Below are positions 17,304 through 51,216 of a DNA stretch of 64,000 nucleotides, in pieces. Below the pieces are notes generated by a model. It saw nothing but the letters and a program-made list of their open reading frames with translations. It did not search any database and was not told where the DNA came from. Each line of letters begins with the position of its first letter. The first letter of the stretch is position 1. The DNA comes from Cyanidioschyzon merolae (lineage: Eukaryota), in the NCBI GenBank assembly GCA_000091205.1, contig AP006502.2; one strand, 5' to 3'. Both the position numbers and the translations under genes were made by a program.

Positions 17304-17345
<42 letters not shown>

Positions 17346-24977: not shown

Positions 24978-25135
24978 CGCTCTTGTGACGTGCTCGAGCC
25001 AGATGGGTATCACCACACGATGAATGTCGATGATGCCACAAATCCGGTTCAGCATACTCGCTCTTGTGACGTGCTCGAGCCAGATGGGTATCACCACACG
25101 ATGAATGTCGATGATGCCACAAATCCGGTTCAAGG
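24978..25135. repeat. 84-bp tandem duplication (2 copies) in the intergenic region between convergent genes
   Basis: 'cgctcttgtgacgtgctcgagccagatgggtatcaccacacgatgaatgtcgatgatgccacaaatccggttca' is repeated at 24978-25061 and 25062-25135. Confidence 0.9.
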
Positions 25136-28829: not shown

Positions 28830-31580
28830 ATGTTAGACGCGAAACCTGGCGTGGAGCAGTGGGTGCGGCGTCTGGCAGCGCAAGCAGCGCTAGATGAAAG
28901 AACTGTAGACGAAGCGCTGCAACTGGTTGAACAAGTTCGTTTCCCTGAAGACGAGGCCAGCTGGGCAGCATGTGCGCTTCTAGTGGCGGTACAGAGTCCT
29001 GAGACGGCTGGACACGTGCTCGGGGCGTTTCTCCGCTGTGCCGACGTTACACCGCAACCTAGTCCGAAAGGCAGAGGTAACTGTATTAGCGACTTTTTCG
29101 AGCGGGCGAAGATGATCTCACCCACTGCTCAGCGCATGGAGCAGCTCCTCGTGGTTATTGCGAACGTCCACCGCAAGTTTGTGGAACTTTATCAAGGCGA
29201 CATTTTCGACGAGGAACGGGCCTGGATATGTTTTCTCACGGCTCTCGCGCTGTTGGCGTCACGAGGCGGCCCGCTGGGCGAGCTTCCTGACCTCGTGAGT
29301 GCCTACCATCTAATGGTCGCTGTCATCCGCCGGTTGCAACTGAAGATGCTTAAGCAGCCAGATATCCTCGAGGAAGATGTCGAGCGATACTTGGCACGAC
29401 TCGAAACGACGATGATCCCATGGGATGACACGAGCGGCATGCAGGACCTCTACAACAGCGTCTTTGTCGGCCGCCTCGGGTTTGACGGCCGCATTCTACT
29501 GCAAGCACACCATCTGGGACAAATGTTGTGCGAAATGCATAAGTTTCCTGCCAAGGACGCAGCACCCACTTTGGTTCAGAGAGTGAGACCGGAGCGGTGC
29601 GTCCCGCGCTTCTCACGCGTTATCAGCGAAACGCTATCATCGCTTCGTGCAAAACGGCAGCGTATGGAGTCGACACCATTATCGTCGTCGTCGTCATCGT
29701 CGTCGTCGATGGCGGTGAAACCATCTCTGCACGCCGAACAGGTGCCACCTGCCCGTGGCGCATCGGCTGAGGATGAGCAGCATTCATCTACGGCACCAGG
29801 TCCGAAAAGCACCGCTTTGATATATAATGATGCTGAAACGCCGATGCCCTCTACTCAGTGCGTATACCCGGATCAAAAGGACTCCGCCGATGCTGTTTTT
29901 GATGAGCTGGCAGCGGCCGCGGCGCTCCAGAACCTGGCTCGCCCGCGAGAAGCAGATTCCGCGGGCGGCAAAGTTGCTGCTGCCCTTCGGACACCGCAGC
30001 GAGCTGCACTCTCTACGCAGAACCCCAACCGAGTGCCGCCACCCTCGCCACGTCGCACCCCGATTCGGGGCGGTATTGCCTCTGTTCGTTGGGTGCGCGC
30101 TATAACCGCCCTTGCTTCTCGAGTTTGTGATAATCTCCGGGAAACTTACGGTGGACTTGGAGTCGACCCCTTGGGTTTCGCGAATTCGGCAACTGGGTAT
30201 CTGCTCCAGAGCTTTACGGAGCGATTTCATCCCGAAACTGCAGAGCAGCGTATCGGGGAAGTCATGGCAGTGTACTGGTACGCACTGGAAAGCATTTTGA
30301 ACGCTGAGACGCAACGCATGAACGGCTCGACAGACTTTGTGCCGAAACTACTTGCGCTGCAACCTTTTCACAAGGCGCTGCTCCTGTGTGCCGTCGAGAC
30401 GGTGTGCGCATCATACGGCATCCGAGACGAAATCCACTTTGAGCACCTGCTGGAGTCGCTGAAGCTCTCGCCGTTCGATTTCATCAAAATCATTGGCGCC
30501 TACGTGCTCAATGTGGAGAATCTCCCGCCCCAGGCGAAACGTCGTCTTGCAGCCTGCCAGGAGTGCGTGCTCTGCGTGCTGGCCTGGCAGTCGGACTCGT
30601 TACTCGTACGCGCACTTCGCACGGGCGACATGAGCTCCATACCAACAGCGGCATTGGATTTGTTCTTTGACAAGCTGCTGATGCAAGCGGATTATCGCAT
30701 CCTGAACGTCTGTGCTCGCCTCGGCATCTGCGAAGAAGCGTTTGAAAATCGGGTGTGGTCGATTTTCAAACTGGCGCTCACGGAGCAATGGGAGCTCTTC
30801 ATCGGGCGCCATCTTGATACAGTTCTACTTTGCTGCTTCTATGGAGCAGCGAAGACGCAGCGTTCCCTGCAGTTCAAATTTGTGGATATCATTCGAGCGT
30901 ATCGGGCAGTTGTTGCGGACTCTGAATGCATCCGACTGAGTGACTCGCTGCAGACAGTGTATCGGGATCTTGCCTTGGACGATGGTGGACGTGGCGACAT
31001 TATTGCCTTTTACAACCTTATTTTTGTTCCACATATGAAGCGCTACCTGTTGGGACAAACTACTCCAGAGGGTCCAGCCGCTGCTCTCTCAATGAGCAGT
31101 ACACCCGAAAGGCGCCGTGAATCCGAATCTGAACTCGATGCACATCATGTGAATGCTCCGCACGCGTCACCCGTATCTTCTCCTGGCTTGGGACCGCGTA
31201 TCGTGGACAAGATCATTTCGTCGCCGCTGCGTCTACCACGAATACGTAGCCAGTCCGGAGTGGTTAGCCTTCGCGCGAGTCCCGCAACGAGCCCGCGAAA
31301 TACATTCCCAGTTTGGACGCTGCCGACGTATTCTCCGCAGTCTACGCTAACGCCCCTTGCGTCCTCGCGACGAGCGGCGCTTCTGGCAGCGAGATTGCCT
31401 CCGAACGCGTCGCCACAGTTCCAGGCCCCACGGCCCGAGGGCAGCCCCAGCACTCGAACCCAAGCGGCGGCGGCAGAGGCGGAAACGCAGGCGGAGGCAG
31501 CGCCTGCGTCACCGCACCAGCCGTTGGCCGAGCAGCGCATCACATCCCCGCCTGGACGCCGGAAACTTGTCTTTTTCTAA
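28830..31580 (+). CDS. Retinoblastoma-related (pocket) protein
   Basis: 916-aa ORF. Pocket-B signature 'LDTVLLCCFYGAAKTQRSLQFKFVDIIRAYRAV...DIIAFYNLIFVPHMKRYLLG' parallels human RB1 '[32 protein letters not shown]...[20 protein letters not shown]'. The spacer contains poly-Ser encoded by (TCG)n at about 29680-29706. C-terminus is S/P rich. Confidence 0.75.
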   Translation: MLDAKPGVEQWVRRLAAQAALDERTVDEALQLVEQVRFPEDEASWAACALLVAVQSPETAGHVLGAFLRCADVTPQPSPKGRGNCISDFFERAKMISPTAQRMEQLLVVIANVHRKFVELYQGDIFDEERAWICFLTALALLASRGGPLGELPDLVSAYHLMVAVIRRLQLKMLKQPDILEEDVERYLARLETTMIPWDDTSGMQDLYNSVFVGRLGFDGRILLQAHHLGQMLCEMHKFPAKDAAPTLVQRVRPERCVPRFSRVISETLSSLRAKRQRMESTPLSSSSSSSSSMAVKPSLHAEQVPPARGASAEDEQHSSTAPGPKSTALIYNDAETPMPSTQCVYPDQKDSADAVFDELAAAAALQNLARPREADSAGGKVAAALRTPQRAALSTQNPNRVPPPSPRRTPIRGGIASVRWVRAITALASRVCDNLRETYGGLGVDPLGFANSATGYLLQSFTERFHPETAEQRIGEVMAVYWYALESILNAETQRMNGSTDFVPKLLALQPFHKALLLCAVETVCASYGIRDEIHFEHLLESLKLSPFDFIKIIGAYVLNVENLPPQAKRRLAACQECVLCVLAWQSDSLLVRALRTGDMSSIPTAALDLFFDKLLMQADYRILNVCARLGICEEAFENRVWSIFKLALTEQWELFIGRHLDTVLLCCFYGAAKTQRSLQFKFVDIIRAYRAVVADSECIRLSDSLQTVYRDLALDDGGRGDIIAFYNLIFVPHMKRYLLGQTTPEGPAAALSMSSTPERRRESESELDAHHVNAPHASPVSSPGLGPRIVDKIISSPLRLPRIRSQSGVVSLRASPATSPRNTFPVWTLPTYSPQSTLTPLASSRRAALLAARLPPNASPQFQAPRPEGSPSTRTQAAAAEAETQAEAAPASPHQPLAEQRITSPPGRRKLVFF

Positions 31581-32194
31581 ACAAACGCACGGTGCTGATC
31601 AATGAACGCACTCCTCCTCTGAACGATGCGTTTGCGAATATGTCCTGCAGCGCAGCACGATCGCTGAACAACCCTTGACTGGACAGTGCCAGGACCGATT
31701 CCGTTGCGTGTTCGTGCGGGCGCTTCACGCCAGTCACGTTCCGTGACGCAGTTCCTCGAGATCCGGCACCGTCGTGCGTTACGTACTAGTGCAGTAGCAA
31801 GTGAAGCAGAGTGAAGCAATGCGCCCACAGCGACCGTACAGAACACTTTGCTAGCTGGACGAACGTTACGCATGCGCCTCTCGCATCAGAGGAGGCCACT
31901 GCATTGACCGATGTTACGAGCCAATGCGCTCCGAGAAGCGCATTTGAGCACCATGCGTTGACCAGGGGCGTCTGACACACCACCCCTCCGTGTTACGAAG
32001 CGTACAGCGCTGAACGAAGTCAAAAGAAAGCCCGAGTCGCGTGGAAGTATCGAGTGGTTTCTGTGAACCGCGCAGGTCGTTCTCATACCATACCTAAAAG
32101 TTAAATCTCAATACCCTTCAAGTTGATCCTGGGATTTCGATAGCGATGCCGCAACAGAAGCACCGCTCACCACTAAACGCCCTCCAAAAGCCAA

Positions 32195-34700
32195 ACGTTG
32201 CCGCCAGCAGCGGTATACAGTGGTGGCGCGAAGCCCGCCCTAGACAAGAAGTCTCCAACTGACGTGCAAACGCCTCCCAGTCTTTTTGGACCGGCCACCC
32301 ACTGCTGCTTTCAAGTTCTTCTCATATCATTCCACTTTGAGAGGTTGTCCAACAAAATTCCATCTTGTCAACTCCGGAGGTCTTCTTTCCATGGCCGCGC
32401 ACCTCTTTATATTGATAGCGGCGTTAGTCACGATTCACAAACTCCATACGCTTCTTGCCATTGATTGTACTAACCAGTGCAAGGAGTCCTCGAGCTTTCG
32501 CCCTCCTTTCCATTTGCTCTTCCGTCAGTGGTCCGTACCTTTTTATATCCTCAGGGCTCCGTTGGCACTTTTCCATCTCGAGCCTCTGAAGTATACACCC
32601 CAGTTCATGGTGTGTATAGGACGTTCGGAACTCATCTACAGGTATCGTAACGAAACGCCGTGCACACTCCTTGTCCACCCTCGTCGTTGGAGCTGGTGCA
32701 CACCCCTTTTGGGTCTTCCATCGGCCTGCTCCGTACGCTACTACGAGCCTCTGACTTTCATTCTCCTTCAGGGCGCTCAACTCATTGAAAATTTTCGCGA
32801 ATGCACGTTGCCTCCCACCGTATAGATTCATCCGCAGACGAGCCCACCGGGGCTTTCTACACTCCTCCCACAGCGCATCCCAATACGCAACGCGAACTTC
32901 CATGAACTCTCGAAAAGCTTTAAAGTCCGCTCCGCGGCTCGTCACCTCGCTCAAAGCCTCCAGGTGATCCTTCATTCCTGCGTTCCACGTCTCAATTTTC
33001 TTCCTAGCATTCATGATACCGGATTCTCGATAGTATCTTGCTCTCGAGAATCTCAACAGACGCATGTCCTTCTGACGTAATTTACCGTCAGTACCATCTT
33101 CCGCACGCTTGAGTGCTGCGATGGTTATGATATTCGTGTTTCCGAGGTCCGCGCCAACGACAAAGTCGTTATCCTGCACTTTCTGCGTCGCAAGATCCGC
33201 CTGTTTGTTTTTTCATGCTTGGTCATGGGCAGAACTGGACGATCCACCTTCAACCGCCGATAGTGTACACACATGGCTACTCCATCGGTTTCGGTCATCC
33301 CACTGAATTTCTTTTCCCTGCTTACTTTGAGACGTTTGATTTCGAAGATGTTCTTCCAGTAGGTCTCACAGTTTTCACCGGAGAACTCCTCCCTGTTAAC
33401 ATTGGACTCGGGACTGATCTCCCTCATGATGCCGTAAAGGATTCTGGAATCGATAGTCACAAAACGTGACTTGATGTTGGACAACGGAACGACGTTGAAG
33501 CGCTTACCCAGAAGCGCAGCCTTTCGTCTCCCCCACTCTTCATTTTTTCCTCACTCAGCTTCATCTCTGCCTTGCGTTCGAGTTCACGGTCCAGAAACAC
33601 AAAGTAACGCAGGACGAGGCGATAGTATCTTTCGTTATCTTTTTTCAACTCTGATATGTTTGCTGCTCGGTTTGCCAACCCCAGTACCGCACGATGCTCT
33701 TGTATAGCCGCTCGGATGACGGAATCCTCATTGATGCTCCTGAGTGATTTCTTCTCGTCGATGAATTCAATCTCATCTTCACGCTTGCGATCGTTCGTGT
33801 TGCCATTGACAATCGCCCATATCCCCTGGCGAATGAGACCGGGGTAGAGTGCAAAGATGGAGCGTATCATGAAGCTTTTGAGGTTCATTGTTAAATGGTT
33901 CTTTAGACTGGTGAGGTACTTCATCGCCCCGTAGGTGTAAATATTCCAATCCCCCCTGTATCGAGTACCGTCGAAGCGGAAGTCGGCGTAAATTTTGTGG
34001 AGGGCATGAACTCGCTCATTTCACCTAGACGTTTCCCCGGTGCCAAGCATAAAGTGATAAATAAAGGTTTTGTTGAAAAATTCTTCCAGAATATGGACTG
34101 TTTTGATGTCCGTAACGTCATGATACCATTTTCTTAGGAAATCCACCATTCCTTGAGAAGCGTCACGAACACCGCTGGAGTTCGGCTCGACACGGTTCCA
34201 GATTGCCTCTTGAACGTTTTCCCTGTACGGATCCTTGGTATGTTGAAGAAGACAGGCTTTCACCGCCATCTCGTCGTACCGTCGTCTTTTGTGTAGCCTT
34301 TGACGTAGGGCCTTCCACTTTTACTTCTTCTTCTTATCCTGTTCCTTTGCACTTGGCACTGTTCTTCGTTGTTTCGGGCTGCCGGCGACATTGGCGCCCA
34401 GGATCCTACACTTCCACTTCCGTAACTTTCCTTTTTCAATATAAAAACCGAAACCACTTTGGATGGGACAGCTATTACGCACGAAAAAGCACTTGAATAC
34501 AGTAGAGTGAAGGTTGAAACACGATTGAGGACAAACAATGTATTTTTCTACGACTTGAACATCGTTACAATTTGTACGTTAGAGCTACACGCTTCATTTT
34601 TCCGATGGAAAAACACTTATATTGACAATGGATCCCAGATTGTGCTATGAATGGGTATCGGATTCAGCGAAAGCGTCCATCATGCTGCATCCTAACTCCA
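32195..34700 (-). mobile_element. TnpB/Fanzor-like element copy 1; ORF broken by several frameshifts
   Basis: Minus-strand ORF pieces 34269..34021, 33924..33457, 33484..33125 and 33179..32424, plus a frameshifted tail to about 32275, are co-linear with the 757-aa copy-3 protein. The '[15 protein letters not shown]' RuvC-I-like motif is intact. The RuvC-III region 'RD*..NAAINI' is disrupted by a 2-nt deletion. The 5' leader and the 3' post-stop tail are both conserved with copies 2 and 3. Confidence 0.75.
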
Positions 34701-35269
34701 GATTCCATTACGTATACTTCCTTTCAGATGTACTACTCGTCTCGTGCTTCCTGTCATTCGCCGGGTGCATGCGTTGATGCACACGCCTTAGCGTCTAATC
34801 CGCTGATGCCGATGAATCACAGAGACAGGACAGCGTTGCCGTACTACTGAGAGCGTCGGATCGAGGAATGCTCCACCTGACACAGAGTTGGAGTATAGGA
34901 TCATTCTGGGAGCCAGCAAGCTCCGCAGACAGACACACTGCCTGCGATAGCGTGAAGCTCTATACTAGGACTCCACCGCGACCAGATCGACGCCCAGATG
35001 CAGTTTAACTGCCGCTAGTACCAGAATAAACTGTGCTTCAGACGAATTGCTCAGATTTCTATGCAGCACCCGCCACTGGGTGGCGAGCACGAAGCACGTG
35101 CCTGGGGTACTCGTCTGGCTCGCGGGTTTTTCCGTCGAGAAAATCAACTTTCGACAAAACGGGAACCGTTTCCCCCTTTTATCGTTTATCGTGCAGGGGA
35201 GATAAATTGGGGTACCTTGCTAGTTAATGGTTAGTCTCTGTTCTTTGCTCCGTATGCTGCGGTCGGCTA

Positions 35270-37770
35270 GCGCGCCGGGGAGATCAGGTCGTACGAGACA
35301 AGACGCACGTGTCGCCGTTGAAAGGAGACGCGAAATTGTGAAAATCCGTTTTCTTATTGTTCTACCGTACAAGTTGTATTTGCGTTAAAGTCGTAACAAA
35401 GTAAAGTTGTTTCATGCAATTGTGTTTCAAACCTCAAGTAAGTGTATACAAATGATGTTTAGCGATTCAGATCAGAAGCGTTCAAAGAGCCTTCTTCTTC
35501 TTCAAAAATAACAAAAGTTATGGAAAAGAAACTGGAGGATCCTGGACATCTGGTGTCGTCGACTGCCGGAGACTAACGAAAAACATGGCGGAGCTAAAAG
35601 GAACATGAGAAGACGATGGAGCAAAAGAGGGAGGCCCGAGGTAAGAAGCTGAACGAAACACGACAATACGACCATATGATGGTGAAAACCTGTCTTCTCG
35701 GGCATATCAAGGATCCGTCCAGGCGAAAGCTGCGAGAGGCCATCAGAAACCGTATCGAGTCATACTCCATGAGTGTTATGATGGCTTCTGCAGGTATAAT
35801 GCATTCGGTGAAGGAGATGCACGACGACGTAACGGGCATCAAAACAGTCGAGGTTCTGGAAGAATTTTTCGGCAAAACCTTTATTCGTCACCTGATGCTT
35901 GGTACAGGGGAAACGTCGAGGAGAAATGAGCGGGTGCATGCCCTCCACGAAAATTACGCCGAATTCCGCTTCAACGGTCCTCGAGACAGGGGTGACTCGC
36001 GTATTTACACCGTCGGGGTAATGAAGCACCTCACGAACCTGAAGAACTATTTGACCATGAACCTGGAACGTTTCATGATACGCGCCGTCTGTGCGCGCTA
36101 CCCGGGCCCCTCTCGCGAAGGGATATGGACCATCACCGATGGCATCACAAACGATAGTAAGAATGAGCAGGAGATCGAATTTGTTCACGAGAAGACATCA
36201 CGCAGGAGAGCAAATGAGGATTCTGGAATCCGTGCGGCTATTAAAGAGCATCGTGTGGTCTTGGGGCTGGCGAGTCCAGCAGGAAAGATATCAGAGTTGA
36301 AAAAAGATACGGAAAGATACGATCGCCTCATCTTGCGCTATACCATACTCCTGAACCGACAACTGAAATGCAGGACCGATATGGAGCAGGGTGTGGAAGC
36401 AAATGCAGTGTCGGAGAAACGGAAAGCTGCGCTTCTGGAGAAGCGCTTCAACATCGTTCCGTTATGCAACATCAAGTCACATTTTGTGAGTATCGACTCC
36501 GAAATCCCTCACGGCATCATTACGGAGATCTGTCCAGTGTTCGATGTAAGCAACAAGGAGTTCACCGGTGAAAACCAGGAGACGTACTGGAAGAAGAATA
36601 TCTTCGATTCCAAACGTCTCAGAACGAGCAAGAAAAAGGAATTCACTGGGATGATCGAAAGCGATGCGATAGCCATGCGTGTACATTATCGGCGCTTGAA
36701 GGCGGATTGCCCAGTTCCGTCTTCGTTGCAGTCGCTGGCAAAGCGTGAAGAAAACAAAGAGGTTAGCCCAACGAAGCAGGAGGTGCATGAGAACCACTTT
36801 GTCGTTGGCGCGGGCCCTGGGAACACGAATATCATGACCATCACAACACGCAATTGCGGGGATGATGGCATCGACGGCAACCTACGTCAAAAACACATGC
36901 GTGTTTTAAAGCGCTCAAGAACGAGATATTACCGAGAATTCGGTGTGATGAATGCAAAGAAGAAAAGTGGAACGTGGAATGCTGGAGTAAAAGAGCACCT
37001 GGAAGCGATCAGCCAGGTGACGGGCCGAGGAGCGGACTTTCTAGCTCTTCTGGAGTTCATTAAAGTTCGCGTTGCACATGACGTGGCACTGTGGAAAGAA
37101 TATACAACGCCTCGGTGGGCTCGTCTACGTACGAATCTGTACTGTGGAAGAAGCGTGCATTCGCCAACTTTTTCAATCAGTTGAGCGCCCTCAAGGACGA
37201 CGAGAGGCAGAGGCTCGTCGTAGCATACCGATCAGGGCGCTAGGCGTGGAAAAAGGGACTACCCGAGCTCCAACGCCGAGAGCGAACGAGAAATGCGCAC
37301 CCCGTTTTGTCACGATACCTGTAAATCAGTATCGAGCATCGTATGTGCACCATGAGCTGGGGCGTACACTCCAGAGGATCAAGAAGGAAAAGTGCCAGGG
37401 GAGCCCCGGGGATATAAAAAAGTACGGAGCGCTAACAGAACAGCAAATGGGACGGAGGTCTAAAGTTCGAAGACCCCTGGCATGAACGAGTACAGCCAGT
37501 AACGGCAGGAAACGTATGGCGTTCGTGAACCGAGACTTTAACGCTGCTATCAATATCAGGAGATATACGCTGCTAAAGAAGAGACCCGACAAGCTGACGC
37601 GAGCCAGCTTTGTGGAGCACTCCCTCAAGACCGAACTGTACTAGGAGAAGCTGAATCCAGTAGCAGGTGATCGGTCCAGAAAGACGAGGATCCGCCTGCA
37701 CGTCCGCAGATAAACATGCAGTCCGAGGGCGCGAGGTACCCAGAAACACACCGACGGCGGCTGCGCACGC
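35270..37770 (+). mobile_element. TnpB/Fanzor-like element copy 2; frameshifts plus an in-frame TAG
   Basis: ORF 35616..37184 continues, after a 1-nt deletion, into 37072..37485, and after a further shift into '...GRKRMAFVNRDFNAAINIRRYTLLKKRPDKLTRASFVEHSLKTELY'. The RuvC-I position reads '[11 protein letters not shown]' (Asp to Gly). The 5' leader starting 'ggagatcagg...' and the 3' tail are shared with copy 3. A (gcgtgcaat)3 run lies at 37785-37808, just outside the element. Confidence 0.75.
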
Positions 37771-37785
37771 AGATTCCAGATATGC

Positions 37786-40041
37786 GTGCAATGCGTGCAA
37801 TGCGTGCCGCCGCTTCCGTTCGTTGACCCGCGCGCGCTTGTCGGATTCAGGACCCCCGCCTCCAAGCAACGTATTCGTGTTGAACGCTTCAGGTACGCCT
37901 CGTTTCTGTGGACAACACCCGGGGCTGATCCCATTGATCTTTTCATAATGACAGGAGTTGTGGCAGAGTCTGAGAATCTGCCGCCAAGTGGCGCAGAAGC
38001 AAAGTCGTTGGTCGATGACGCGGGGTTTGCGCCTACCGCACCTCCGCCAGCTGCAGTTGCACCAGCGCCGGTTGACGAAACGGCTGATGCCTTGGGTTCC
38101 AGCAGGAGCCGCGGGAACGGATCCGGTACCGAGGTGGTAGCTGACGCCGATGAGGAGGAGCAGGTAGCGGCGGCAGCAGCGAAAGCTGCGTCAGCAGCGG
38201 CCTCGCGCATTGCGTTTCGTTTTCGCACCGTGCGACCAGGAGACTTTGAACCCGAGCGCCACTTTTATCCGCGCTGTCTTAATGCTCAAATTCATCCGTC
38301 TGTGCGTTTCTTCATGGGCTTGTCCCGGGAGCGCATCGTGTCTCGTTATACGCACCTGAATACGCGGGTCGACCCAGTGGAGCTGCGACGCCTGTTGGCC
38401 TACTCGCCGCGATACTTGCGCTGGGCCGGCTGCGACCTCATGCACGTTGTGGACTCACGATCCCAGCGGAAGTGCATGGTGGTCATTGAAACCAATAGTT
38501 GTCCCAGTGGTCAAAAGTCGACACCGCTGTTCGATGACCAAGATGAATACGGAGGCTATCGAACGCTGCTGCAGCGAGCACTGCTGTCACGGTTGGAGTC
38601 GCCAGCGGAGCAGCCCATTGCTGGAGGCAAATTAGCCGTTCTCTTTGACAAAAATCCCATGGAAGCCAGCGGATACGCAGCGTGTTTGGCTGAGCTCACC
38701 AACGAGGAGGTTTATCTCGTCCCGATGCTTGAAGAGAACGCTGCCGACTGTGCCGAACCCGAGTTGCGAACGCTCGCCGACGGTGCTCGGGGTCAAGCGA
38801 CGACCGGAATACGCGCTACAGACGGGAGCCCGACGAGCGCGCCTGCGACCTCGAGCGGTACAAACGTGGCGAACGGACGATCGTATGCCTTTTTCAAGAA
38901 TGGCATTCTATACGTTCGGCGACCGAAAGAACACTTGCTGGAGAGTATGATTCCGAATGGCGCAAACAATTGTGCAGCTCGTGACCGCGTAAGCGTTGTA
39001 CTCCCGCCGGATTCACGAAAGCAAACATGCGAAGCACAGCCAGCTCTGCGCTCCGAGGCGGCATCGACAACCGCAGGTAAGAACGGCATCCTCCGAGACG
39101 ACGACACAGCCGACGTTGTGCCGATTCGGGCGGCGCTGCGCTATGTGACCCAGCGCCCATGGAACCGGATACCGGTGCACACGCAGACGATCATCACCAA
39201 TTCTGTTGTATCATGTCTTGCTGGCGGGCGCAACAAGCTCGTTGCAGCAAAAGCCTACGACAATGCCAACGTGGAGCTGATGGCTTGCGGCCTGGAGATT
39301 CGCACGCCACTGACGATCCGCGACGTGCCCCTGAACATGCTCAGGCGATGGGTTGATCGCCTCGGCGGCTTTGCCGCAATCAAGGTTCCATACTCCAATG
39401 CAGGGCAAGGTGTTTTCACGATCACTTCCCAGGAGGAGTTTGACAGATTCTACGAGGCCGAATCTAAGCGTCCGAACCGATACGACAAGTACATCGTGCA
39501 AGCGCTGATTTCGAACCATGAATGGTCTTCCGCAGGGAGCGGCACATCAGCAGCAGGCTCCGTCGAATCCTACAGTCGCCTCTATCATGTGGGTACCATG
39601 CCGGATAAGCGCGGTCACATCTACGTCAATGATCTCCGCTTGATGATCTGTGGCGGGCCGGACGGCTTTGTGCCCGTCGGTCTCTACGCGCGCCGAGCTC
39701 GCGCACCGCTCGCAAAAGAGCCCGGCAACAACAGTTGGGAGCAACTCGGCACCAATCTCTCCGTCAAGGTCGGCGAAGGCCTGTTCACATCTGAATCCGA
39801 GCGCCTCATGCTTATGGACAAGAAAGATTTTAATCTGCTGGGTCTGAGTCTCGATGATCTTATCGACGCCTTCGTGGAGACCTGCCTCGCCGTTCGAGCC
39901 ATAGATGTCATGGCCCAGTGGCTCTGTTCGGATGCCGGCGGTCGATTCAGCCTGCCCCTCTTCCGTTCGGTCTGTGGAGATGATTCGCTCATTCGGGAGA
40001 TCATACGGGGCAGTCCAGAACTCCAAAACGCTTCAGGGTGA
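37786..40041 (+). CDS. ATP-grasp domain protein (family uncertain; TTL-like, RimK-like or glutathionylspermidine-synthase-like)
   Basis: The C-terminal half 'FAAIKVPYSNAGQGVFTITSQEEFDRFYE...KYIVQALI...IYVNDLRLMICGGPDGFVPVGLYARRA' resembles the ATP-grasp nucleotide-binding and catalytic loops. The real start is probably Met at about 37947 (MTGVVAESEN...). Confidence 0.45.
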   Translation: MQCVQCVPPLPFVDPRALVGFRTPASKQRIRVERFRYASFLWTTPGADPIDLFIMTGVVAESENLPPSGAEAKSLVDDAGFAPTAPPPAAVAPAPVDETADALGSSRSRGNGSGTEVVADADEEEQVAAAAAKAASAAASRIAFRFRTVRPGDFEPERHFYPRCLNAQIHPSVRFFMGLSRERIVSRYTHLNTRVDPVELRRLLAYSPRYLRWAGCDLMHVVDSRSQRKCMVVIETNSCPSGQKSTPLFDDQDEYGGYRTLLQRALLSRLESPAEQPIAGGKLAVLFDKNPMEASGYAACLAELTNEEVYLVPMLEENAADCAEPELRTLADGARGQATTGIRATDGSPTSAPATSSGTNVANGRSYAFFKNGILYVRRPKEHLLESMIPNGANNCAARDRVSVVLPPDSRKQTCEAQPALRSEAASTTAGKNGILRDDDTADVVPIRAALRYVTQRPWNRIPVHTQTIITNSVVSCLAGGRNKLVAAKAYDNANVELMACGLEIRTPLTIRDVPLNMLRRWVDRLGGFAAIKVPYSNAGQGVFTITSQEEFDRFYEAESKRPNRYDKYIVQALISNHEWSSAGSGTSAAGSVESYSRLYHVGTMPDKRGHIYVNDLRLMICGGPDGFVPVGLYARRARAPLAKEPGNNSWEQLGTNLSVKVGEGLFTSESERLMLMDKKDFNLLGLSLDDLIDAFVETCLAVRAIDVMAQWLCSDAGGRFSLPLFRSVCGDDSLIREIIRGSPELQNASG

Positions 40042-45485: not shown

Positions 45486-48320
45486 ACCTCGGAGATGAAC
45501 AGGCCGGGCGCTCTTCACACACGAAGCCAGCTCTGTGCGGTGCAGGTCGCTCGCTTGTGAGTGTATCGCATATCTGCGGCACTTTATTTGTGTGTCTTGA
45601 GATCTGTGTGTCTATATGCTAGAGTATCAGCGGGTCGTCAGGCGCGTGTGTGGCTCCTCGAGCATGCGCTTCCCTGATCGCTCGACTCGGGGCCCTGCGG
45701 GCATTCAACATTCTCGACGCATCTGCGAGACGTGTGTCATGGATCCAACCGGCATTGCACCTAGCCGCTGGCAAGGCGCCTCTGAATCACTGGACATACG
45801 TAAGCATCGTGCTCGAGCTGTTGAGCTCTTTTCGAAGGGAATCTACCGACAACATGGCTTGCAAAGTCATCGGGGCGGGACCACACAACAGGGGCTTTGT
45901 TTGGACCCTCTTTTCAAAAACGCAACCAGAGACGGCACTTGGATGCATTCATTCAGCTTTCCGCACACGTAACAGGTTGCAGCTATGCACAAGCGCCTCG
46001 TACGCGACCGGTCATTAGCGAGATACCTGCGTAGAATCGCGGTCTTCGTAGAGAGCATGCGTTCCGTGCGACGCTCCAAAATGACAGCGTATTCTGTCCA
46101 CGATTCTGCCTGCTCGTCATTTGGCTACAGACCGTCGGCTTTGTGAGCGCAAGCTGAAAGCGTTCACGCAATGCGCATGATGCATCATCAATACAACCAG
46201 CCAAGCAAGACGGGATTCCTGACCATGGACTAGATTTCGCGTCAGGGGAGTCTGTCGAAGAAGCAATGCGTGCGAGGAGGACGTGAGCCAATCACGATCA
46301 TCCTCCATCCGCCCGGTCTTTCTCTGGGGTATTGAGTGAATGCTCAATCATTCGGAATAGAAGCCATGACGAAAAGCACCAAGAGACAAACGTGGGGTCA
46401 CTGCAGCGGCGTGCATACCAGCCCAAGCGCTTGCTGGGGCAACCAGTGCTTGCTGAGCGAACGCTGCGTAACGCTCTTAGCGACAGCAGTTTTAGACTCG
46501 CGATCGGCAGTGGCACACTCGGCAGGTCTTTTGGGCGAAGGATCAGGACGCATCCGGGATGCACTACTGCACACCTGCGGTACCAGAGAGGAACGAGGTT
46601 CCCGGACAGACCGTATTCCCGCTAGTGGAGGGTGCCGTACCCGCGCCTCGGCAATGCCTAACGAGGTTGCTGTTCAGGACTTGAATCTCTAGAATGCTTC
46701 CTACAGATGACGAGACTTTGGACTCAGAGCAGCGCACTTGCAAGAACATGTATCAACACGGTAAACGTGTAATTGTTTGTTTTTCGCACAGGTATTCAAA
46801 ACGTGGATTGTATATTATAGAGCGATGAAAGGTCGCGAGATGACTTTATGCTGGCTGGCTGGCTGGCTTCGGAGCAAAACGCCTTTACTTGTCCAGACCA
46901 GACATTGTGCGGACAGCAGACGTATGAGGTACCCCTCTCGTAGTGCGTTCCTTGAACGACTTGCACCGACCACAGCAAGTTTCAAAAGCTATCTACATGA
47001 GCGTCCCGTCTTTCATGTATTCCAGCCCGGATGATATCCATGACGTACCTCCAAAGAAGCCGCTGGATGAGAGGTTTTCGAACGGTTGATACAAATTGCG
47101 GTGAAGCGACACGAGTGAACGAAGAAGATGGCAGGCTACTACTTGTAGCTGCAGCACCTTGAACAGCGCACGATCGATTTCGCACTGCAACGCGAAAGTT
47201 TATTCCACCAGGGGCATATTGCCGTCTCAATGTATGAGACTTTATTCAGTAGACTTGGTAGATTTGTGTATGGATAATTCAAAACGGGGGCAAACTGCTG
47301 TTCATAGAAAAAAAGCAGCGGGGCTGTCGGTACTATTAGCCCTGGCTACGACTCGGTTATGTAGTTACTTATACATCGCCAAGAATTGTCTAATCGTTCA
47401 ACATCGCATGCTGCGGGGAATCACGTTTTGCGACCTATTCGTTTCACGTTCTTCTTCACTGGCCTTAGACGTTGCCGCTTTCCATCACTATAATGTGGTC
47501 ACGGAGTATGCAGATGAGATCGGCAATGAGCAGTGCTACGTGTGAGCGATGGCTCCCGGTTCCAATCGAGTAGGGGGTATGTCTGTCGGTCTCTGTGCTA
47601 CGCCCGATCCAGCGGTTTGGGCGCTGTTTCGAACGCTCACGGCAGTCGCAGTGCACAATGGAACGTCGGAAAAGCAGAATGTCGGAGATGAGGCACGCGA
47701 TGTGACTGGTGGAAATCGCAGAGCTGGTACGCAATGACGGCAGATTTCCCGGGTGTCGGTACTCGTCGTGAATTCCCGGATCATTGAGCCGTGAGCACAT
47801 TCCATCGATCAGAACGAATTTGCGGTGGGTTGCTCGACACTTGCTGGCCTGGCGCCGGATAGAAACACAATTCAAACCAGTTTCTCATTCCAGCGTCTGT
47901 GCAGAATGGACTGCAAGAAACGGGAATAAACGTGTATCCGTAGTCGGGAAGACTGCGGCGCATAGTTTGTTTACGATCAATAAAACGAACGAAATTCCTG
48001 TTGAGTAGGGTGATGCATACCTCGCCCGCACAAGCGTAAGATACTACAATGGCTACGCTTTTGATACAGGCGTCGAGGGGTATCGTGCCAGGCCCCTGCA
48101 TCCCCTTGTCTGTCGGGGCGGTACTGCGATGGGCAGTAGCGTCGGCACCAGCGACAGAACCTATAGCAAGAGTTCATTCTACGTGAGTTTCCGATGTACA
48201 ATACGTTGTTTTGGCTGCAGTGCACCGGTGAGAGCACGCATGTGCCAATGCGGGGTGTCGGACACGTGTCCTTTATCGATCGGTGCAGCGTCTCGCGCGG
48301 TGCACGCATCGCGCTCAGTG

Positions 48321-50965
48321 CGCGCACCTAGGAGATCAGGCAGGCGTGAGACACGACGCGCATGCCGCCGTTGAAGGGAAACGTAATCGTGATCAGCAGC
48401 GTCTAGCTCTCGTGTTAAAGTTGTATTTTCGTTGACTTTATGGGCAAGTATAGTTTTCAGTTCAATTGTGTTTGAAAACTCAAACAAGTGTATTCTAGTG
48501 TTTTGTCGCAGTATATAAGAGGAGCGTTCAAAGAGGGTTCTTTTTCAAAAAAAACTAAACAAGGAAAGTTATGAAAAAGCAAGTCGACGATCCTGGAGGC
48601 CCAGTGTCGCCGGCTGCCAGAAAGAAAACAAAACACAGTGCCGAGTCCAGAAGAAGAGGAGAAGAAAAAGAAGCAAAAGGAGGAGGCTCTACGTCGAGTG
48701 CTGCAAGAAAGACGAATGTACGACGAGAAGGTGGTGAAAGCTGGTCTTCTTGGATATATCAAGGATCCGTACAGGGAAAATTTGCGAGACGCTATCAGAA
48801 AACGTGTCGACTCGTACTCCAAGAGTACTGTCAAGGCGTCGTCAGGACTGATGCACTCGGCGAGGGAGATGTATCGCGACGTGACGCACATGCAAACAGT
48901 CGAGGTCCCAGACGAGTTGTTCGACACGACCTTTATTCGATACTTGATGCTCGGTACAGGGGAGATGCGAAGGGAAAATGAGCGAGTGCACGCCCTCTGC
49001 CAAAAATACTCCTTCTACAGCTTCGAGGGCACTCGATACAGGGTTGACTCGTGTATTTACGAATACGGAGCGATAAAGTACCCCACGAACCTGAATAAAC
49101 ATTTGACCGTGAACCTCGAACGTTTCATGATACGCGCCGTGTTTGCACTCTACCCGGGCATCTCTCGCAAAGCGATATGGATCATCATCGATAGCATCAA
49201 AAACGATAGTAAGAATGAACAGGTGATCGAATTTGTTCACGAGAAGACATTATGCAGGAAAACGAATGAAGCTTCTGTAATCCGTGCGGCTATACAAGAG
49301 CACCGTGCAGCACTGGGGCTTGCGAGTCCAGCAGAAAAGATATCAGAGTTGAAAAAAGATAAGAAAAGATACCATCGCCTCGTCCTGCGCTATTTCGTGT
49401 TTTTGGACCGAGAGCTCGAACGCAAGGCGGAAATGAAGCTGAGTGAAGAGACAAATGAATATTGGGAGAGACGGAAGCCTGTCCTAATAGGGCAGCGCTT
49501 CAACGTGGCTCCAATGTCCAATATCAAGTCACATTTCCTGACGATCGATTCCGGCGTCGTTCATGGCATCATGAGGGAGATCAGTCCCGAGTTCAATGTT
49601 AACAGGGAGGAGTTCTCCGGCGAAAACCGGGAGACGCACTGGAAGAATATCTTCGATTCCAAACGTCTGAGAGTGAGCAAGCAAAAGTTGTTCACTGAAA
49701 TGATTGAAACCGATGGAGTGGCCTTGTGTATACACTATCGGCGGTTGAAGAGAGATCGGCCAGTCCCTCCCTCGGCCGCGCCCGTGACGAAGGATGAAGA
49801 AAAGGAGGAGGCCGGTCCTGCGACACAGGAGGTAGACGATAACGACCTTGTCGTTGGCGCGGCGGAGCATGAAGATGAGAAGGAGGCGGATCCTGTGATG
49901 CAGGAGGTGGAGGATAACGGCCTTATCGTTGGCGCGGTGAAGCTTGATGAAAACAAAAAGGCAGATCCTGCCACGCAGAGAGTGCAAGATAATGACTTTG
50001 TCGTTGGCGCGGACCCTGGGAATACGAATATCATCACCATTGCAGCACCCAAGCGTGCGGAAGATGGTGCTGATGGTAACTTGCGTCAGAAAAACATGCG
50101 TCTTTTGAGGTTCTCGAGAGCGAGATACTATCGAGAATCGGGAATGATGAATGCAAGGAAGAAAATCGAGACATGGAATGCAGGAATGAAGGAGCACCTG
50201 GACGCTATGAGCGAGGTGACGAGCCGAGGAGCGGACTTTGAAGCTTTTCGGGAATTCATGGAACTTCGTGTTGCGCATTGGGATGCACTGTGGGAGCAGT
50301 ATACCAAGCCTCGGTTGGCTCGTCTGCTTATGAATCTATACGGGTAGAGGCAGCGGGCATTTGCGAACTTTTTCAATCAGTTGAGCGCCCTCAAAGAGGA
50401 TCAAAGTCAGAGGCTGGTAGTAGCATACGGGGCAGGGCGCTGGGCGCCCAAGAAAGGCACTACGCCAGCTCCATCGACGAGAACGTACAAGGAGTGTGCG
50501 CGGCGTTTTGTTAAAATTCCTGCAGATGAGTTTCGAACATCGTATACACATCATGAACTGGGATGTACACTTCAGACGGTGGAGATAGAAAAGTGCCAAC
50601 GGAGTCCTGAGGAAATAGCAAAGTACGGACCGCTGACGGAAGAGCAAATGGAAAGAAGGGCGAAAGTGCGAGGGCTACTCGCATTAGTAAGTACAACCAG
50701 TGATGGAAAGAAACGGATGGAGTCTGTGAATCGAGATTGTAACGCCGCTATCGATATAAGGAAATGTGCGGTGCTAGAGAAAAGACCTCCAGAATGGACA
50801 AGAGAGAACTTTATTGGACAACCTCTCAAAGTCGAACTATATGAGAAGAAGTTGGAAGCAGTAGTGGGTGGCCGGTCGCAAAAGTCTGGGAGGCGTCTAC
50901 ACCTCGGATGAAAGCGTTATGTCTAGGGCGGGTTTCTCGCCACTAGTGTGCACGGTCGGCATCGT
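48321..50965 (+). mobile_element. TnpB/Fanzor-like element copy 3 (best preserved)
   Basis: A ~300-bp leader is shared with copy 2. A single reading frame runs 48638..50911 with one internal TAG. About 55 bp of post-stop sequence is conserved with copies 1, 2 and 4. Confidence 0.8.
48638..50911 (+). pseudogene. ~757-aa TnpB/Fanzor-like (RuvC-fold) protein gene with one in-frame TAG at 50345-50347
   Basis: ORFs 48638..50347 and 50381..50911 are in the same frame, separated only by 'tac ggg TAG agg cag'; copy 1 reads 'tac ggt ggg agg caa' at that point. Motifs: K/E-rich N-terminus; '[16 protein letters not shown]' (RuvC-I-like); 'FVKIPADEFRTSYTHHELGC...EKCQ' in the position of the TnpB zinc ribbon; 'NRDCNAAIDIRK' (RuvC-III hallmark D-x-NAA-x-NI). 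Confidence 0.75.
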
Positions 50966-51216
50966 TCGACTGCGTTTAGGTTCTCTCTTTTGCAAATGAA
51001 ACACATCCTCCATCAGACTTGCGAAAACGACGCAGCGCTCCTTGTCGTGCGAAGGCGTTTCCGCGCTCGTGCCTGCAACGCTGTACATACCCGTGTGTCT
51101 ACAGAGGCCGGCGCCATGCAACCGCCCTGGCGAGCAGCTGTTTATCCGGAGATGCTTATAGCATCTTGAACTCGGAGTCGAGCTTCGTTTTCCGTTGTGC
51201 GCAGATGGTGGCGTGG

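What the first reader, a model, noticed from the sequence alone, without database searches (positions are those of the whole stretch)
32195..37770. Two degraded Fanzor-like copies arranged head-to-head as a ~2.5 kb inverted repeat with a ~570 bp spacer; copy 2 abuts a host gene start
Copy 1 (minus strand, multiple frameshifts, 2-nt deletion inside RD..NAAINI) and copy 2 (plus strand, 1-nt deletion, in-frame TAG, RuvC-I Asp to Gly) face each other with their 5' leaders about 570 bp apart (34700 to 35270). Large inverted repeats are recombinogenic and hairpin-prone. The pair lies between the Rb-related gene and an ATP-grasp gene. The right end of copy 2 (~37770) is within ~180 bp of the probable ATP-grasp start codon (~37947), so the insertion sits in that gene's promoter or 5' region. 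A (gcgtgcaat)3 micro-repeat at 37785-37808 marks the junction.
Basis: seen in the sequence. Interest (0 to 1): 0.6.

Follow-up and report, generated by a model that had tools for sequence, protein, structure and literature searches.

The report
Two dead Fanzor transposon copies, head-to-head
Two old, broken copies of the main known repeat family of the red alga Cyanidioschyzon merolae (a Fanzor1-carrying transposon) lie head-to-head upstream of a gene; the arrangement is real and stable but ordinary.

Summary
Two decayed copies of one element face each other between the Rb-like gene and CMT041C.

- **Source:** the window is Cyanidioschyzon merolae 10D, chromosome 20.
- **Family:** the element is already described, as the 253-copy "WSV486-like" repeat (Nozaki 2007) and as CMe-1A/Fanzor1 (Bao & Jurka 2013). 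A family profile matches solved Fanzor1 structures (E = 9e-23).
- **The "570-bp spacer" is not a spacer.** It is copy 2's own 5' module. The 5'-truncated copy 1 (32176-34596, minus strand) directly abuts full-length copy 2 (34597-~37783, plus strand).
- **Decay:** both copies are dead. Copy 2 is worse than reported: two frameshifts, in-frame TGA and TAG, catalytic Asp to Gly and Glu to Gln.
- **Arms:** they are 74% identical and the longest exact match is 22 bp, so a recombination or hairpin hazard is unlikely.
- **Not an artefact:** an independent assembly of a strain 1.8% diverged has the same pair, colinear over 13.2 kb.
- **Lineage-specific:** the sister genus Cyanidiococcus has Rb and the CMT041C orthologue 1.2 kb apart with no copies.
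- **Origin:** the two copies belong to one old subfamily but are never sisters (0/100 bootstraps). Separate insertions are favoured over a local inverted duplication.

Leftover leads: several other head-to-head junctions, and one mosaic metagenome contig.

The parts
32176..34596 (-). Copy 1: a 5'-truncated, decayed CMe-1A/Fanzor1 element (core only, lacking the first ~105 nt of the common core and any 5' module). The 3' terminus ...GGCGTT is at 32176.
   Evidence: four frame segments; 3' end alignment; 5' end alignment.
32408..32441 (-). Copy 1 RuvC-III motif FVNRD / NAAINI, split by a 2-nt deletion (only 1 nt lies between the two pieces instead of 3).
34596..34597 (.). Head-to-head junction: the truncated 5' end of copy 1 abuts the 5' terminus of copy 2's module with no intervening DNA.
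   Evidence: The same junction is present in L077 and in L076.
34597..35254 (+). The 5' module of copy 2 ('modA'). It is probably the TE-N2_CMe-like 5' part of CMe-1A.
   Evidence: it is found upstream of cores in L014, L017, L038, L040, L045, L048, L054 and L070, and detached from any core in L019/L032 and L025/L070. The TE-N2_CMe link is taken from Bao & Jurka 2013 and was not tested against Repbase.
35255..37783 (+). Copy 2 core: a decayed Fanzor1 ORF plus the 3' end. The last ~80 nt are too diverged for BLAST, so the terminus was placed by family alignment.
36801..36830 (+). Copy 2 RuvC-I motif [10 protein letters not shown]: the catalytic Asp is replaced by Gly. The same change occurs in P0030 on L076, so it is not private to this copy.
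37321..37341 (+). Copy 2 RuvC-II motif VNQYRAS in place of VDEFRTS: the catalytic Glu is replaced by Gln.
   Evidence: The aligned Glu is the catalytic residue in SpuFz1.
37784..37808 (+). Micro-repeat GCGTGCAAT, 2.7 copies, immediately after the inferred copy 2 3' terminus. It is identical in four strains.
37948..40041 (+). Host gene CMT041C (BAM83067, annotated as a hypothetical protein) with an ATP-grasp-like fold. Its start codon is 164 bp from copy 2's end.
28830..31580 (+). Host Rb-family gene (BAM83066). Its stop codon is 595 bp from the 3' end of copy 1.
47850..50985 (+). Copy 3: a full-length element with a different 5' module ('modB', 47850-48305). It holds a 758-codon ORF interrupted by a single TAG at 50345.

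Best explanation
These are two ancient, non-functional relics of the CMe-1A / 'WSV486-like' Fanzor1 transposon family of Cyanidioschyzon merolae.

**Where and when.** They entered the Rb-CMT041C intergenic region after the split from Cyanidiococcus and have since decayed neutrally.

**What each copy is.** Copy 2 is a full-length element: a 5' module, a Fanzor1 ORF and a 3' end. Copy 1 is a 5'-truncated element of the same old subfamily in the opposite orientation. Its broken 5' end sits directly against copy 2's 5' terminus.

**How they arose.** Most likely by two separate insertion events, not by copying of one arm from the other. The order of the two events is unknown.

**What they can do now.**
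- Neither copy can make an active nuclease. Copy 1 has three frameshifts. Copy 2 has two frameshifts, two stop codons and has lost two of the three catalytic residues.
- At 74% arm identity the pair behaves as ordinary unique DNA, not as a palindrome.
- The only plausible present-day effect is passive. The pair lengthens the intergenic region from about 1.2 kb to 6.4 kb. It also places the 3' end of copy 2, which has the same orientation as CMT041C, 164 bp upstream of that gene's ATG. There it may supply or overlap the promoter or 5' UTR.

**Shown:** family identity, anatomy, decay, absence in the sister genus, stability across strains.

**Inferred:** independent insertions, neutrality, any promoter role.
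For: - **Organism.** Five of eight window proteins looked up match C. merolae 10D entries exactly (CMT032C, NADP-dependent GAPDH BAM83063, Rb-like BAM83066, CMT041C, Nug1 BAM83069); the other three exact sequences are not in the collection.
- **Family.**
  - 32 close homologues and 71 metagenome loci.
  - A profile of 42 relatives hits solved Fanzor1 structures: PpFz1 at 9.2e-23, SpuFz1 at 6.5e-16, GtFz1 at 1.7e-9. The DPG..., DEFRTS and NRD motifs are aligned.
  - The literature describes exactly this repeat.
- **Anatomy.**
- **Empty site.** In Cyanidiococcus (L073) and in L074, Rb and the CMT041C orthologue are 1.2-1.6 kb apart in an otherwise syntenic block.
- **Independent assembly.** L077 is colinear with the window over 13,229 bp at 98.2%. 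L075 and L078 confirm the copy 2 to gene junction.
- **Not sisters.**
  - A neighbour-joining tree of 39 cores puts c1, c2 and L076 together in 97/100 bootstraps, c2 with L076 in 98/100, and c1 with c2 in 0/100.
  - Only copy 2 carries the 5' module.
  - The Asp to Gly change is shared by copy 2 and L076 but not by copy 1.
- **Neutral decay.**
  - The copies are 15% and 22% from the family consensus.
  - Differences between strains are 2.5-3.9 per 100 bp in the copies, against 0.14-0.55 in the coding sequences.
  - In each copy they split almost evenly between strains: at 43 of the 94 copy 1 differences the window allele matches copy 2 and at 38 the L077 allele does.
- **Low recombination potential.** The longest exact match between the arms is 22 bp.
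- **5'-truncated copies are common** in the family: L021, L024, L043, L056, L066.
Against: - Copy 1 and copy 2 share 103 derived bases against about 26 expected and belong to one subfamily. The topology (c1,(c2,L076)) would also arise if an ancient inverted duplicate later seeded L076.
- The exact abutment of a copy's 5' end with the module's 5' terminus recurs independently in L055/L052. Truncated head-to-head pairs occur in L042 and in L043/44/56/58/60, and no tail-to-tail pair was seen. This hints at a directed process.
- L076, a metagenome contig with a different flank, carries the same junction and a core that is a mosaic of copy 1-like and copy 2-like blocks. If that contig is real, the arms have exchanged sequence in some lineage.
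- The order of insertion and the cause of copy 1's truncation are unknown.
- A promoter role rests only on position and on a stretch of about 260 nt (37600-37865) with no differences in three other strains. Because differences are strongly clustered elsewhere, that is weak evidence.
Confidence: 0.85

Rival explanations
1. In-situ inverted duplication. A single insertion was copied in reverse, by foldback or template switching during transposition or break repair. This produced a head-to-head dimer that has since diverged to 74%.
For: - The two copies are in the same old subfamily and share an excess of derived bases.
- There is 0 bp between the copies.
- Head-to-head pairs recur in the family and no tail-to-tail pair was seen.
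Against: - The arms are never sisters (0/100 bootstraps). Copy 2 groups with a copy at another locus in 98/100.
- The 5' module is present on one arm only, and the other arm is truncated inside the core.
- The Asp to Gly change is shared by copy 2 and L076 but not by copy 1.
- The arms of the other head-to-head pairs are only 78-83% alike, which is ordinary for the family.
Confidence: 0.07
2. Nested insertion. Copy 2 landed inside the 5' region of a pre-existing full-length copy 1 and split it.
For: - Copy 1 stops abruptly 105 nt into the core, exactly at copy 2's intact 5' terminus.
- Insertion into an existing element is selectively cheap in a compact genome (inference).
Against: - The missing 5' piece of copy 1 should lie just right of copy 2 on the minus strand. 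Local alignment of 37740-37947 against core 5' sequences gives nothing beyond shuffled controls. The best match is 25 nt inside the micro-repeat, equal to the best shuffle.
- BLAST of 37705-39500 against all loci finds nothing.
Confidence: 0.05
3. The pair is a functional or hazardous structure: a recombinogenic or cruciform-forming palindrome, or a source of hairpin RNA, kept or tolerated for that reason.
For: - The inverted geometry itself.
- The family is reported to be transcribed (Nozaki 2007).
- The L076 mosaic could reflect exchange between the arms.
Against: - 74% arm identity and a longest exact match of 22 bp.
- Colinear in a strain 1.8% diverged, with no inversion.
- Strain differences are symmetric with no sign of conversion.
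- The copies diverge faster than their flanks, so the copy bodies show no sign of constraint.
Confidence: 0.02
4. Assembly artefact: the inverted arrangement is a chimeric join through a repeat.
For: It is a multi-copy family with 253 copies, so misjoins are conceivable in principle.
Against: - The 10D genome is a finished telomere-to-telomere sequence (Nozaki 2007).
- An independent metagenome contig (L077) reproduces the Rb, copy 1, copy 2, CMT041C order colinearly at 98.2%.
Confidence: 0.01

Closest known systems
CMe-1A Fanzor1 element of C. merolae (Bao & Jurka 2013, PMC3627910), the same as the 253-copy, 3.2-kb 'WSV486-like' interspersed repeat (Nozaki et al. 2007, PMC1955436)
   Same: - Same organism.
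- About 3.1-3.2 kb when full length.
- Copies are 78-92% identical to the consensus.
- No terminal inverted repeats.
- A separable 5' module that also occurs without a core.
- Encodes a Fanzor1.
   Different: Nothing essential differs; these are members of the family. The head-to-head pairing, the two alternative 5' modules and the palindromic 3' terminus are not mentioned in the passages I read. The Repbase consensus itself could not be compared.
Solved Fanzor1 nucleases: SpuFz1 (8GKH), PpFz1 (9CF0), GtFz1 (9CER)
   Same: Profile-level homology across the WED/RuvC region. The catalytic Asp (DPG...), Glu (DEF/YRTS) and Asp (NRD) motifs are aligned.
   Different: The Cyanidiales family and most of its wider clade lack the CxxC...CxxC zinc ribbon between RuvC-II and RuvC-III. 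Only 8 of 42 relatives hit the Pfam TNB domain. The copies here are pseudogenes. No omega-RNA has been shown.
Bacterial IS200/IS605 TnpB elements (OMEGA systems)
   Same: Distant homology of the nuclease through Fanzor1. A palindromic sequence at the 3' (right) end, where the guide RNA scaffold would end. No TIRs.
   Different: No TnpA-like transposase here. The host is eukaryotic, the protein is about 750 aa, and the 5' ends are variable. The transposition mechanism is unknown.
Fanzor1-carrying non-autonomous Helitron2 elements of Chlamydomonas (CRe-1/2/3, Bao & Jurka 2013)
   Same: - The 3' end is well defined and carries a palindrome.
- The 5' regions vary and many copies are 5'-truncated.
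- Fanzor1 is the only ORF.
   Different: No Helitron termini or RepHel partner were identified here. This is a resemblance only and was not tested.
Large palindromes and long inverted repeats known to cause rearrangements
   Same: Two arms of about 2.4 kb in inverted orientation with a short centre.
   Different: The arms are 74% identical with many indels. The longest perfect match is 22 bp. The structure is stable between strains.

Membership tests
Fanzor1 (TnpB-like RNA-guided nuclease of eukaryotic transposons) | Significant sequence similarity to established Fanzor1 proteins | tested here: met
   A profile of 42 family members matches the solved Fanzor1 chains 9cf0 (E 9.2e-23), 8gkh (6.5e-16) and 9cer (1.7e-9). 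These were the only hits in the PDB. Single-sequence and shallow-profile searches found nothing.
Fanzor1 (TnpB-like RNA-guided nuclease of eukaryotic transposons) | RuvC catalytic triad in the pattern D ... [TS][TS] ... RD, with the Fanzor1-specific Glu just before the [TS][TS] | tested here: met
   Family level: D484, E656, R724 and D725 (P0001 numbering) are invariant or nearly invariant in 42 relatives, and they align to the SpuFz1 and PpFz1 motifs. In this locus: copy 1 keeps D and E but its NRD/NAAINI is split by a frameshift. Copy 2 has D to G and E to Q.
Fanzor1 (TnpB-like RNA-guided nuclease of eukaryotic transposons) | C4 zinc ribbon (OrfB_Zn_ribbon / TNB) between RuvC-II and RuvC-III | tested here: not met
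   There is no CxxC...CxxC. The segment reads TSYTHHELGCTLQ.VE.EKCQR... in the Cyanidiales copies and has no Cys pairs in the clade consensus. The Pfam TNB domain is hit by only 8 of 42 relatives and not by P0001 above threshold. So this is a zinc-ribbon-less branch. Homology to Fanzor1 is nevertheless strong.
Fanzor1 (TnpB-like RNA-guided nuclease of eukaryotic transposons) | omega-RNA encoded at the 3' end, with its scaffold ending at the element boundary | tested here: inconclusive
   The consensus 3' terminus carries a 10-bp palindrome (CGTCGTTCGA CTT TCGAACGGCG) followed by TT, and a GC stem with a variable loop. RNAalifold predicts no consensus fold. Pair counts show 81% pairing but no covariation beyond shuffles. 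Rfam has no match. No RNA data were available.
Fanzor1 (TnpB-like RNA-guided nuclease of eukaryotic transposons) | TnpB/Cas12-like fold (WED, REC, RuvC) | tested here: inconclusive
   The AlphaFold2 model of intact relative P0001 from a 12-sequence alignment was unusable (mean pLDDT 35). Deeper alignments could not be submitted.
CMe-1A / WSV486-like repeat of C. merolae | Host is C. merolae; multi-copy; about 3 kb; copies about 80% identical to the consensus; no TIRs | tested here: met
   Host. Lengths of 3.19 kb (copy 2) and 3.14 kb (copy 3). Copies are 78-92% identical to the consensus. No TIR signal. Literature descriptions.
CMe-1A / WSV486-like repeat of C. merolae | The 5' ~635 bp equals the separate element TE-N2_CMe | not testable with these tools
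   The Repbase consensus is not available. Consistent with the claim, the 658-bp module of copy 2 also occurs without an adjoining core (L019/L032, L025/L070). A second, unrelated 5' module exists in copy 3 and others.
Recombinogenic or cruciform-prone long inverted repeat | Near-identical arms with long uninterrupted homology and a short spacer | tested here: not met
   Arm identity is 74% over 2,356 columns. The longest exact match is 22 bp. The unique centre is 765-777 bp, depending on where arm homology is taken to end. No rearrangement is seen in L077.
Local inverted duplication | The arms are each other's closest relatives | tested here: not met
   c1 and c2 are sisters in 0/100 bootstraps. 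c2 groups with L076 in 98/100.
ATP-grasp ligase (neighbouring gene CMT041C) | ATP-grasp fold | tested here: met
   The AlphaFold2 model has pLDDT 78 and pTM 0.80. The top Foldseek PDB matches are all ATP-grasp ligases: 3n6x (1.4e-5), glutathione synthetases and RimK. TM-scores are low, 0.28-0.41. Pfam and PDB sequence searches found nothing.

The most novel reading that the evidence does not exclude
Head-to-head dimers in this family may be made by a directed process and not by chance.
- In two independent loci a core's 5' end abuts exactly the 5' terminus of the 5' module. One is the window pair; L076 shows the same junction, but it has a different flank and may be a chimeric contig. The other is L055/L052.
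- Two further truncated head-to-head pairs exist, and no tail-to-tail pair was seen.
- This could reflect site-specific insertion next to the module terminus, for example a palindromic target motif or guide-directed homing.
- The mosaic L076 core could record gene conversion between the arms.

If true, the relics would give the first clue to how this transposase-less Fanzor1 element moves.
Probability: 0.1. Interest if true: 0.5.

Novelty: already known. Interest (0 to 1): 0.15.

Why it matters
It matters little in itself. The locus is one ordinary example of a repeat family that makes up about 5% of a finished genome and was described in 2007 and 2013.

It is useful as a clean, dated insertion:
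- absent in Cyanidiococcus;
- the full pair colinear in one C. merolae-like strain (L077), and the copy 2 to CMT041C junction confirmed in two more (L075, L078).

It also shows that a 5.6-kb inverted pair of 74%-identical relics is stable in a very compact genome.

The side observations could guide a genome-wide study of how CMe-1A moves. No transposase, TIRs or target-site duplications are known for it. The observations are:
- the variable 5' modules;
- the palindromic 3' terminus;
- the recurrent head-to-head junctions;
- a sub-lineage lacking the catalytic Asp that still spread.

Tried and rejected
- **Single-sequence family searches.** Pfam and PDB searches with the reconstructed protein and with P0001 gave no hits. 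A 12-sequence profile against the PDB gave only noise. A deeper profile was needed.
- **Structure of P0001.** The AlphaFold2 model was unusable at pLDDT 35.
- **Rfam** on the whole window found nothing.
- **omega-RNA structure.** RNAalifold on 37 3' ends gave no consensus structure. Counting pairs for my own hairpin model gave no covariation.
- **Nested insertion.** I searched right of copy 2 and left of copy 1 for the missing 5' piece and found nothing beyond shuffles.
- **Exact insertion point.** Aligning the residual intergenic DNA to the Cyanidiococcus and L074 intergenic regions gave no signal above shuffles, so the insertion point and any target-site duplication remain undefined.
- **Arm-to-arm gene conversion.** Between 10D and L077 the alleles are symmetric, so it is rejected for that pair of strains.
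- **CpG-methylation-driven decay.** CpG observed/expected is 1.12 in the copies against 1.17-1.25 in the flanks, so it is rejected.
- **P0030/L076 as an orthologue of copy 2.** Rejected, because it has a different flank with a Bestrophin gene.
- **Terminal inverted repeats.** None found.
- **Exact look-up of the Rb protein in the look-up of encoding contigs** failed, although the sequence is in the cluster table.

Full report

Yes. The repeat finder reports five gap-free inverted blocks of 77-82% complementarity between 32478-34119 and 35826-37482. Gapped BLAST joins them into one alignment of 2,356 columns at 74.0%, from 32261-34583 against 35361-37704. A third copy on the plus strand lies at about 48.3-51.0 kb. 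tblastn with an intact relative shows the state of each copy:
- Copy 1 is read in four frame segments.
- Copy 2 is read in three frame segments.
- Copy 3 is read in one frame.

**2. Where the window comes from**

Five of eight window proteins that I looked up are exact matches to Cyanidioschyzon merolae 10D entries on a 1.62-Mb chromosome:
- CMT032C
- NADP-dependent glyceraldehyde-3-phosphate dehydrogenase (BAM83063)
- Rb-like BAM83066
- CMT041C (BAM83067)
- Nug1 GTPase BAM83069

The 'ATP-grasp gene' is CMT041C, annotated as a hypothetical protein.
- Its start at 37948 is supported by alignment with orthologues.
- An AlphaFold2 model (pLDDT 78) matches only ATP-grasp ligases in the PDB.

**3. 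What the repeat is**

The reconstructed copy 3 protein has 32 close relatives, all from JGI or ENA data, including an intact 752-aa protein, P0001.
- Single-sequence searches against Pfam and the PDB fail.
- An exhaustive profile search finds 2,408 cluster representatives.
- A profile of 42 of them hits only three PDB sequences, all Fanzor1: Parasitella PpFz1 (E 9.2e-23), Spizellomyces SpuFz1 (6.5e-16) and Guillardia GtFz1 (1.7e-9).
- The DPG..., DEF/YRTS and NRD motifs are aligned in those hits. These correspond to the catalytic D383, E541 and D606 of SpuFz1.

The literature already describes this family.
- Nozaki et al. 2007 report 253 copies of a 3.2-kb interspersed repeat with a truncated ORF weakly similar to WSV486 of white spot syndrome virus. 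It makes up about 5% of the genome and is transcribed.
- Bao & Jurka 2013 list that virus as a Fanzor1 carrier. They name the C. merolae family CMe-1A: about 150 copies, about 80% identical to a ~3-kb consensus, no TIRs, and TSDs undetermined. They also report that its 5' 635 bp equals a separate element, TE-N2_CMe.

One departure from the classical definition is that the family has no C4 zinc ribbon.

**4. Anatomy, corrected**

I compared the window with 71 metagenome loci.

*3' end.* The family has a sharp 3' end...CGTCGTTCGACTTTCGAACGGCGTT, which is palindromic.

*5' end.* The 5' end is variable. A common core starts near ...CGCGCTCGGTGAGCG. It is preceded by nothing recognisable, by 'modA', by an unrelated 'modB', or by an A-rich variant.

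- It lies upstream of the core with the same orientation and spacing in L014, L017, L038, L040, L045, L048, L054 and L070.
- It also occurs without an adjoining core.
- It therefore belongs to copy 2.

*Resulting coordinates.*
- Copy 2 spans 34597 to about 37783 (3.19 kb, full length).
- Copy 1 spans 32176-34596. Its homology to the family stops 105 nt into the core, exactly at modA's 5' terminus.
- There is no spacer between the copies.
- No TIRs were found.

**5. State of decay**

Copy 2:
- Two frameshifts.
- In-frame TGA and in-frame TAG.
- Asp to Gly in RuvC-I.
- Glu to Gln in RuvC-II.

Copy 3:
- One TAG away from a 758-codon ORF.

The copies are 15%, 22% and 11% from the family consensus respectively.

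**6. One event or two?**

- A neighbour-joining tree of 39 cores groups c1, c2 and L076 in 97/100 bootstraps.
- It makes c2 and L076 sisters in 98/100.
- It never makes c1 and c2 sisters, 0/100.
- Only copy 2 has the module.
- The Asp to Gly change is shared by copy 2 and P0030 on L076 but not by copy 1.
- A nested-insertion model predicts the missing 5' piece of copy 1 to the right of copy 2. It is not there.

I therefore favour two insertions of the same old subfamily. Copy 1 is one of the family's many 5'-truncated copies. An ancient inverted duplication that later seeded L076 cannot be strictly excluded.

**7. Comparison across strains and species**

*Sister genus (empty site).*
- In Cyanidiococcus yangmingshanensis (L073) and a related metagenome genome (L074), the block Aldedh, DUF676, thioredoxin, Rb, CMT041C orthologue, ClpX-like, cullin, eIF-2B is syntenic.
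- Rb and the CMT041C orthologue are 1.2-1.6 kb apart there, with no Fanzor copy.
- The intergenic DNA is too diverged to map the insertion point.

*Strains of the same species (occupied site).*
- A JGI contig (L077) is colinear with window 27802-41022 at 98.2%, so it contains both copies and the junction.
- ENA contig L075 (98.9%) and JGI contig L078 (95.8%) begin inside copy 2 and continue into CMT041C.
- The arrangement is therefore not an assembly artefact.
- The full pair is seen in L077, a strain about 2% diverged. The copy 2 to CMT041C junction is also seen in L078, about 4% diverged.

*Rates of difference between 10D and L077*:

| Region | Differences per 100 bp |
|---|---|
| Copy 1 | 3.9 |
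| modA | 3.1 |
| Copy 2 core | 2.45 |
| Left intergenic region | 0.64 |
| Coding sequences | 0.14-0.55 |

- At most differing sites one strain keeps the consensus base, and the two strains do so in nearly equal numbers. This is the pattern of neutral decay. It shows no arm-to-arm conversion.
- CpG is not depleted.

**8. Is the inverted repeat hazardous?**

The longest exact match between the arms is 22 bp, and overall identity is 74%. By my own general knowledge this is at or below the minimal length for efficient homologous recombination, and such divergence triggers mismatch-repair rejection. Together with the colinearity in L077, the 'recombinogenic, hairpin-prone' reading is not supported.

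**9. Effect on CMT041C**

- Copy 2 has the same orientation as the gene and ends about 164 bp before its ATG.
- The GCGTGCAAT x2.7 micro-repeat (37784-37808) starts at the inferred terminus.
- The stretch 37600-37865 shows no difference in L075, L077 or L078, while the body of copy 2 differs by 1.5-2.5%.
- That is compatible with promoter or 5' UTR constraint.
- Differences in the copies are strongly clustered, however, so I treat this only as a hint.

**10. Chance**

With 253 copies (Nozaki 2007), 4,775 genes in that paper's Table 2 and hence roughly 4,800 intergenic regions by my estimate, about seven intergenic regions per genome should hold two copies. About a quarter of those should be head-to-head. 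This is my own arithmetic. One such pair is unremarkable.

**11. Loose ends**

(a) L055/L052 show an independent head-to-head pair in which a complete core 5' end abuts the same modA terminus.
- L042 and L043/44/56/58/60 carry truncated head-to-head pairs.
- No tail-to-tail pair was seen among the loci. That is 4 against 0, which is weak statistics.
- The arms of those pairs are only 78-83% alike.

(b) L076, a 7.7-kb metagenome contig whose other flank is a Bestrophin gene, reproduces the c1|modA junction.
- It is 94-97% identical to the window in modA and the leader of copy 2, but only 79-88% identical in the copy 1 part.
- Its core is a block mosaic of copy 1-like and copy 2-like sequence.
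- This is either exchange between the arms in another lineage or a chimeric assembly. I could not decide which.

**12. Verdict**

This is a correct observation of an ordinary feature. It is a pair of dead copies of a known, abundant Fanzor1 transposon family in a finished genome. The pair is stably inherited and shows no sign of acting as a palindrome. Interest is low. The only forward-looking value lies in the family-level leads listed above.

Noticed in passing
window 47850-50985 (copy 3); tandem units at 49783-50007: Copy 3 is full length with a different 5' module (47850-48305). Its 758-codon Fanzor1 ORF is broken only by one TAG at 50345. It carries three tandem 75-nt (25-aa) units just upstream of RuvC-I. 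Copies 1 and 2 have one unit, and relatives have up to five or six.
   Followed up: partly
L076 (JGI24721J26819_10011170) 1-3410, against window 32183-35574: This metagenome contig has a Bestrophin gene on its other flank and carries the same copy 1 | module junction. It is 94-97% identical to the window in the module and copy 2 leader, but 79-88% in the copy 1 part. Its core is a block mosaic of copy 1-like and copy 2-like sequence. Either the arms exchanged sequence by gene conversion or the contig is chimeric.
   Followed up: partly
L055 439-6102 / L052; L042 2798-5301; L043, L044, L056, L058, L060: Other head-to-head pairs occur in the family. In L055 a complete core 5' end abuts the 5' terminus of the same module, with zero spacing. 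L042 has a 6-bp gap and L043-type loci a 48-bp gap between truncated arms. No tail-to-tail pair was seen among 71 loci. The arms are 78-83% alike.
   Followed up: partly
window 36801-36830; P0030 on L076: The RuvC-I Asp to Gly change of copy 2 is shared with a copy at another locus. A sub-lineage lacking the catalytic Asp therefore still spread, presumably mobilised in trans.
   Followed up: no
family-wide (alignments A1, A4): This Fanzor1 clade has 2,408 cluster representatives at E <= 0.001. It lacks the CxxC...CxxC zinc ribbon between RuvC-II and RuvC-III. Only 8 of 42 sampled members hit Pfam's TNB domain.
   Followed up: partly
family 3' ends; window 32176-32215 (copy 1), 50950-50985 (copy 3): The consensus 3' terminus is a 10-bp palindrome (CGTCGTTCGA CTT TCGAACGGCG) followed by TT. 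The flank often continues with a G/T-rich ...TGGTG motif. Upstream there is a GGCG/CGCC stem whose loop varies in length. No covariation could be shown.
   Followed up: partly
window 33407-34100 against L077: Differences between 10D and the 98.2% strain are strongly clustered inside copy 1, with up to 20 in 100 bp, many of them changes to G in L077. This could be a metagenome assembly or coverage artefact, patchy conversion from a third copy, or local hypermutation.
   Followed up: partly
window 37600-37865: About 260 nt covering the 3' end of copy 2, the micro-repeat and the first 60 nt beyond show no difference in three other strains that are 1-4% diverged. The body of copy 2 differs by 1.5-2.5%. 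This may reflect promoter or 5' UTR constraint for CMT041C.
   Followed up: partly
window 40100-51200: Between CMT041C and the ClpX-like gene, C. merolae has about 11 kb that is absent at this position in Cyanidiococcus (L073) and L074. It holds a 940-aa ORF with no Pfam hit (40529-43351, minus strand), the Nug1 GTPase gene (43839-45485) and copy 3.
   Followed up: no
window 13790-13966 (+): A fourth, very short Fanzor remnant. It covers the C-terminal 60 residues, including the RuvC-III region, at 43% identity to P0001.
   Followed up: no
window 14206-15408 and 16913-18199; 13023-13186; 24971-25132: A tandem duplication with a period of about 2.7 kb has blocks 95-100% identical and an internal 73-nt repeat. 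There are also two separate two-copy tandem repeats, of 82 nt and 81 nt.
   Followed up: no
window 15946-16138 against L001 4402-4594: Another short repeat is shared at 86% between the window and an unrelated metagenome locus. This points to at least one more dispersed repeat family.
   Followed up: no
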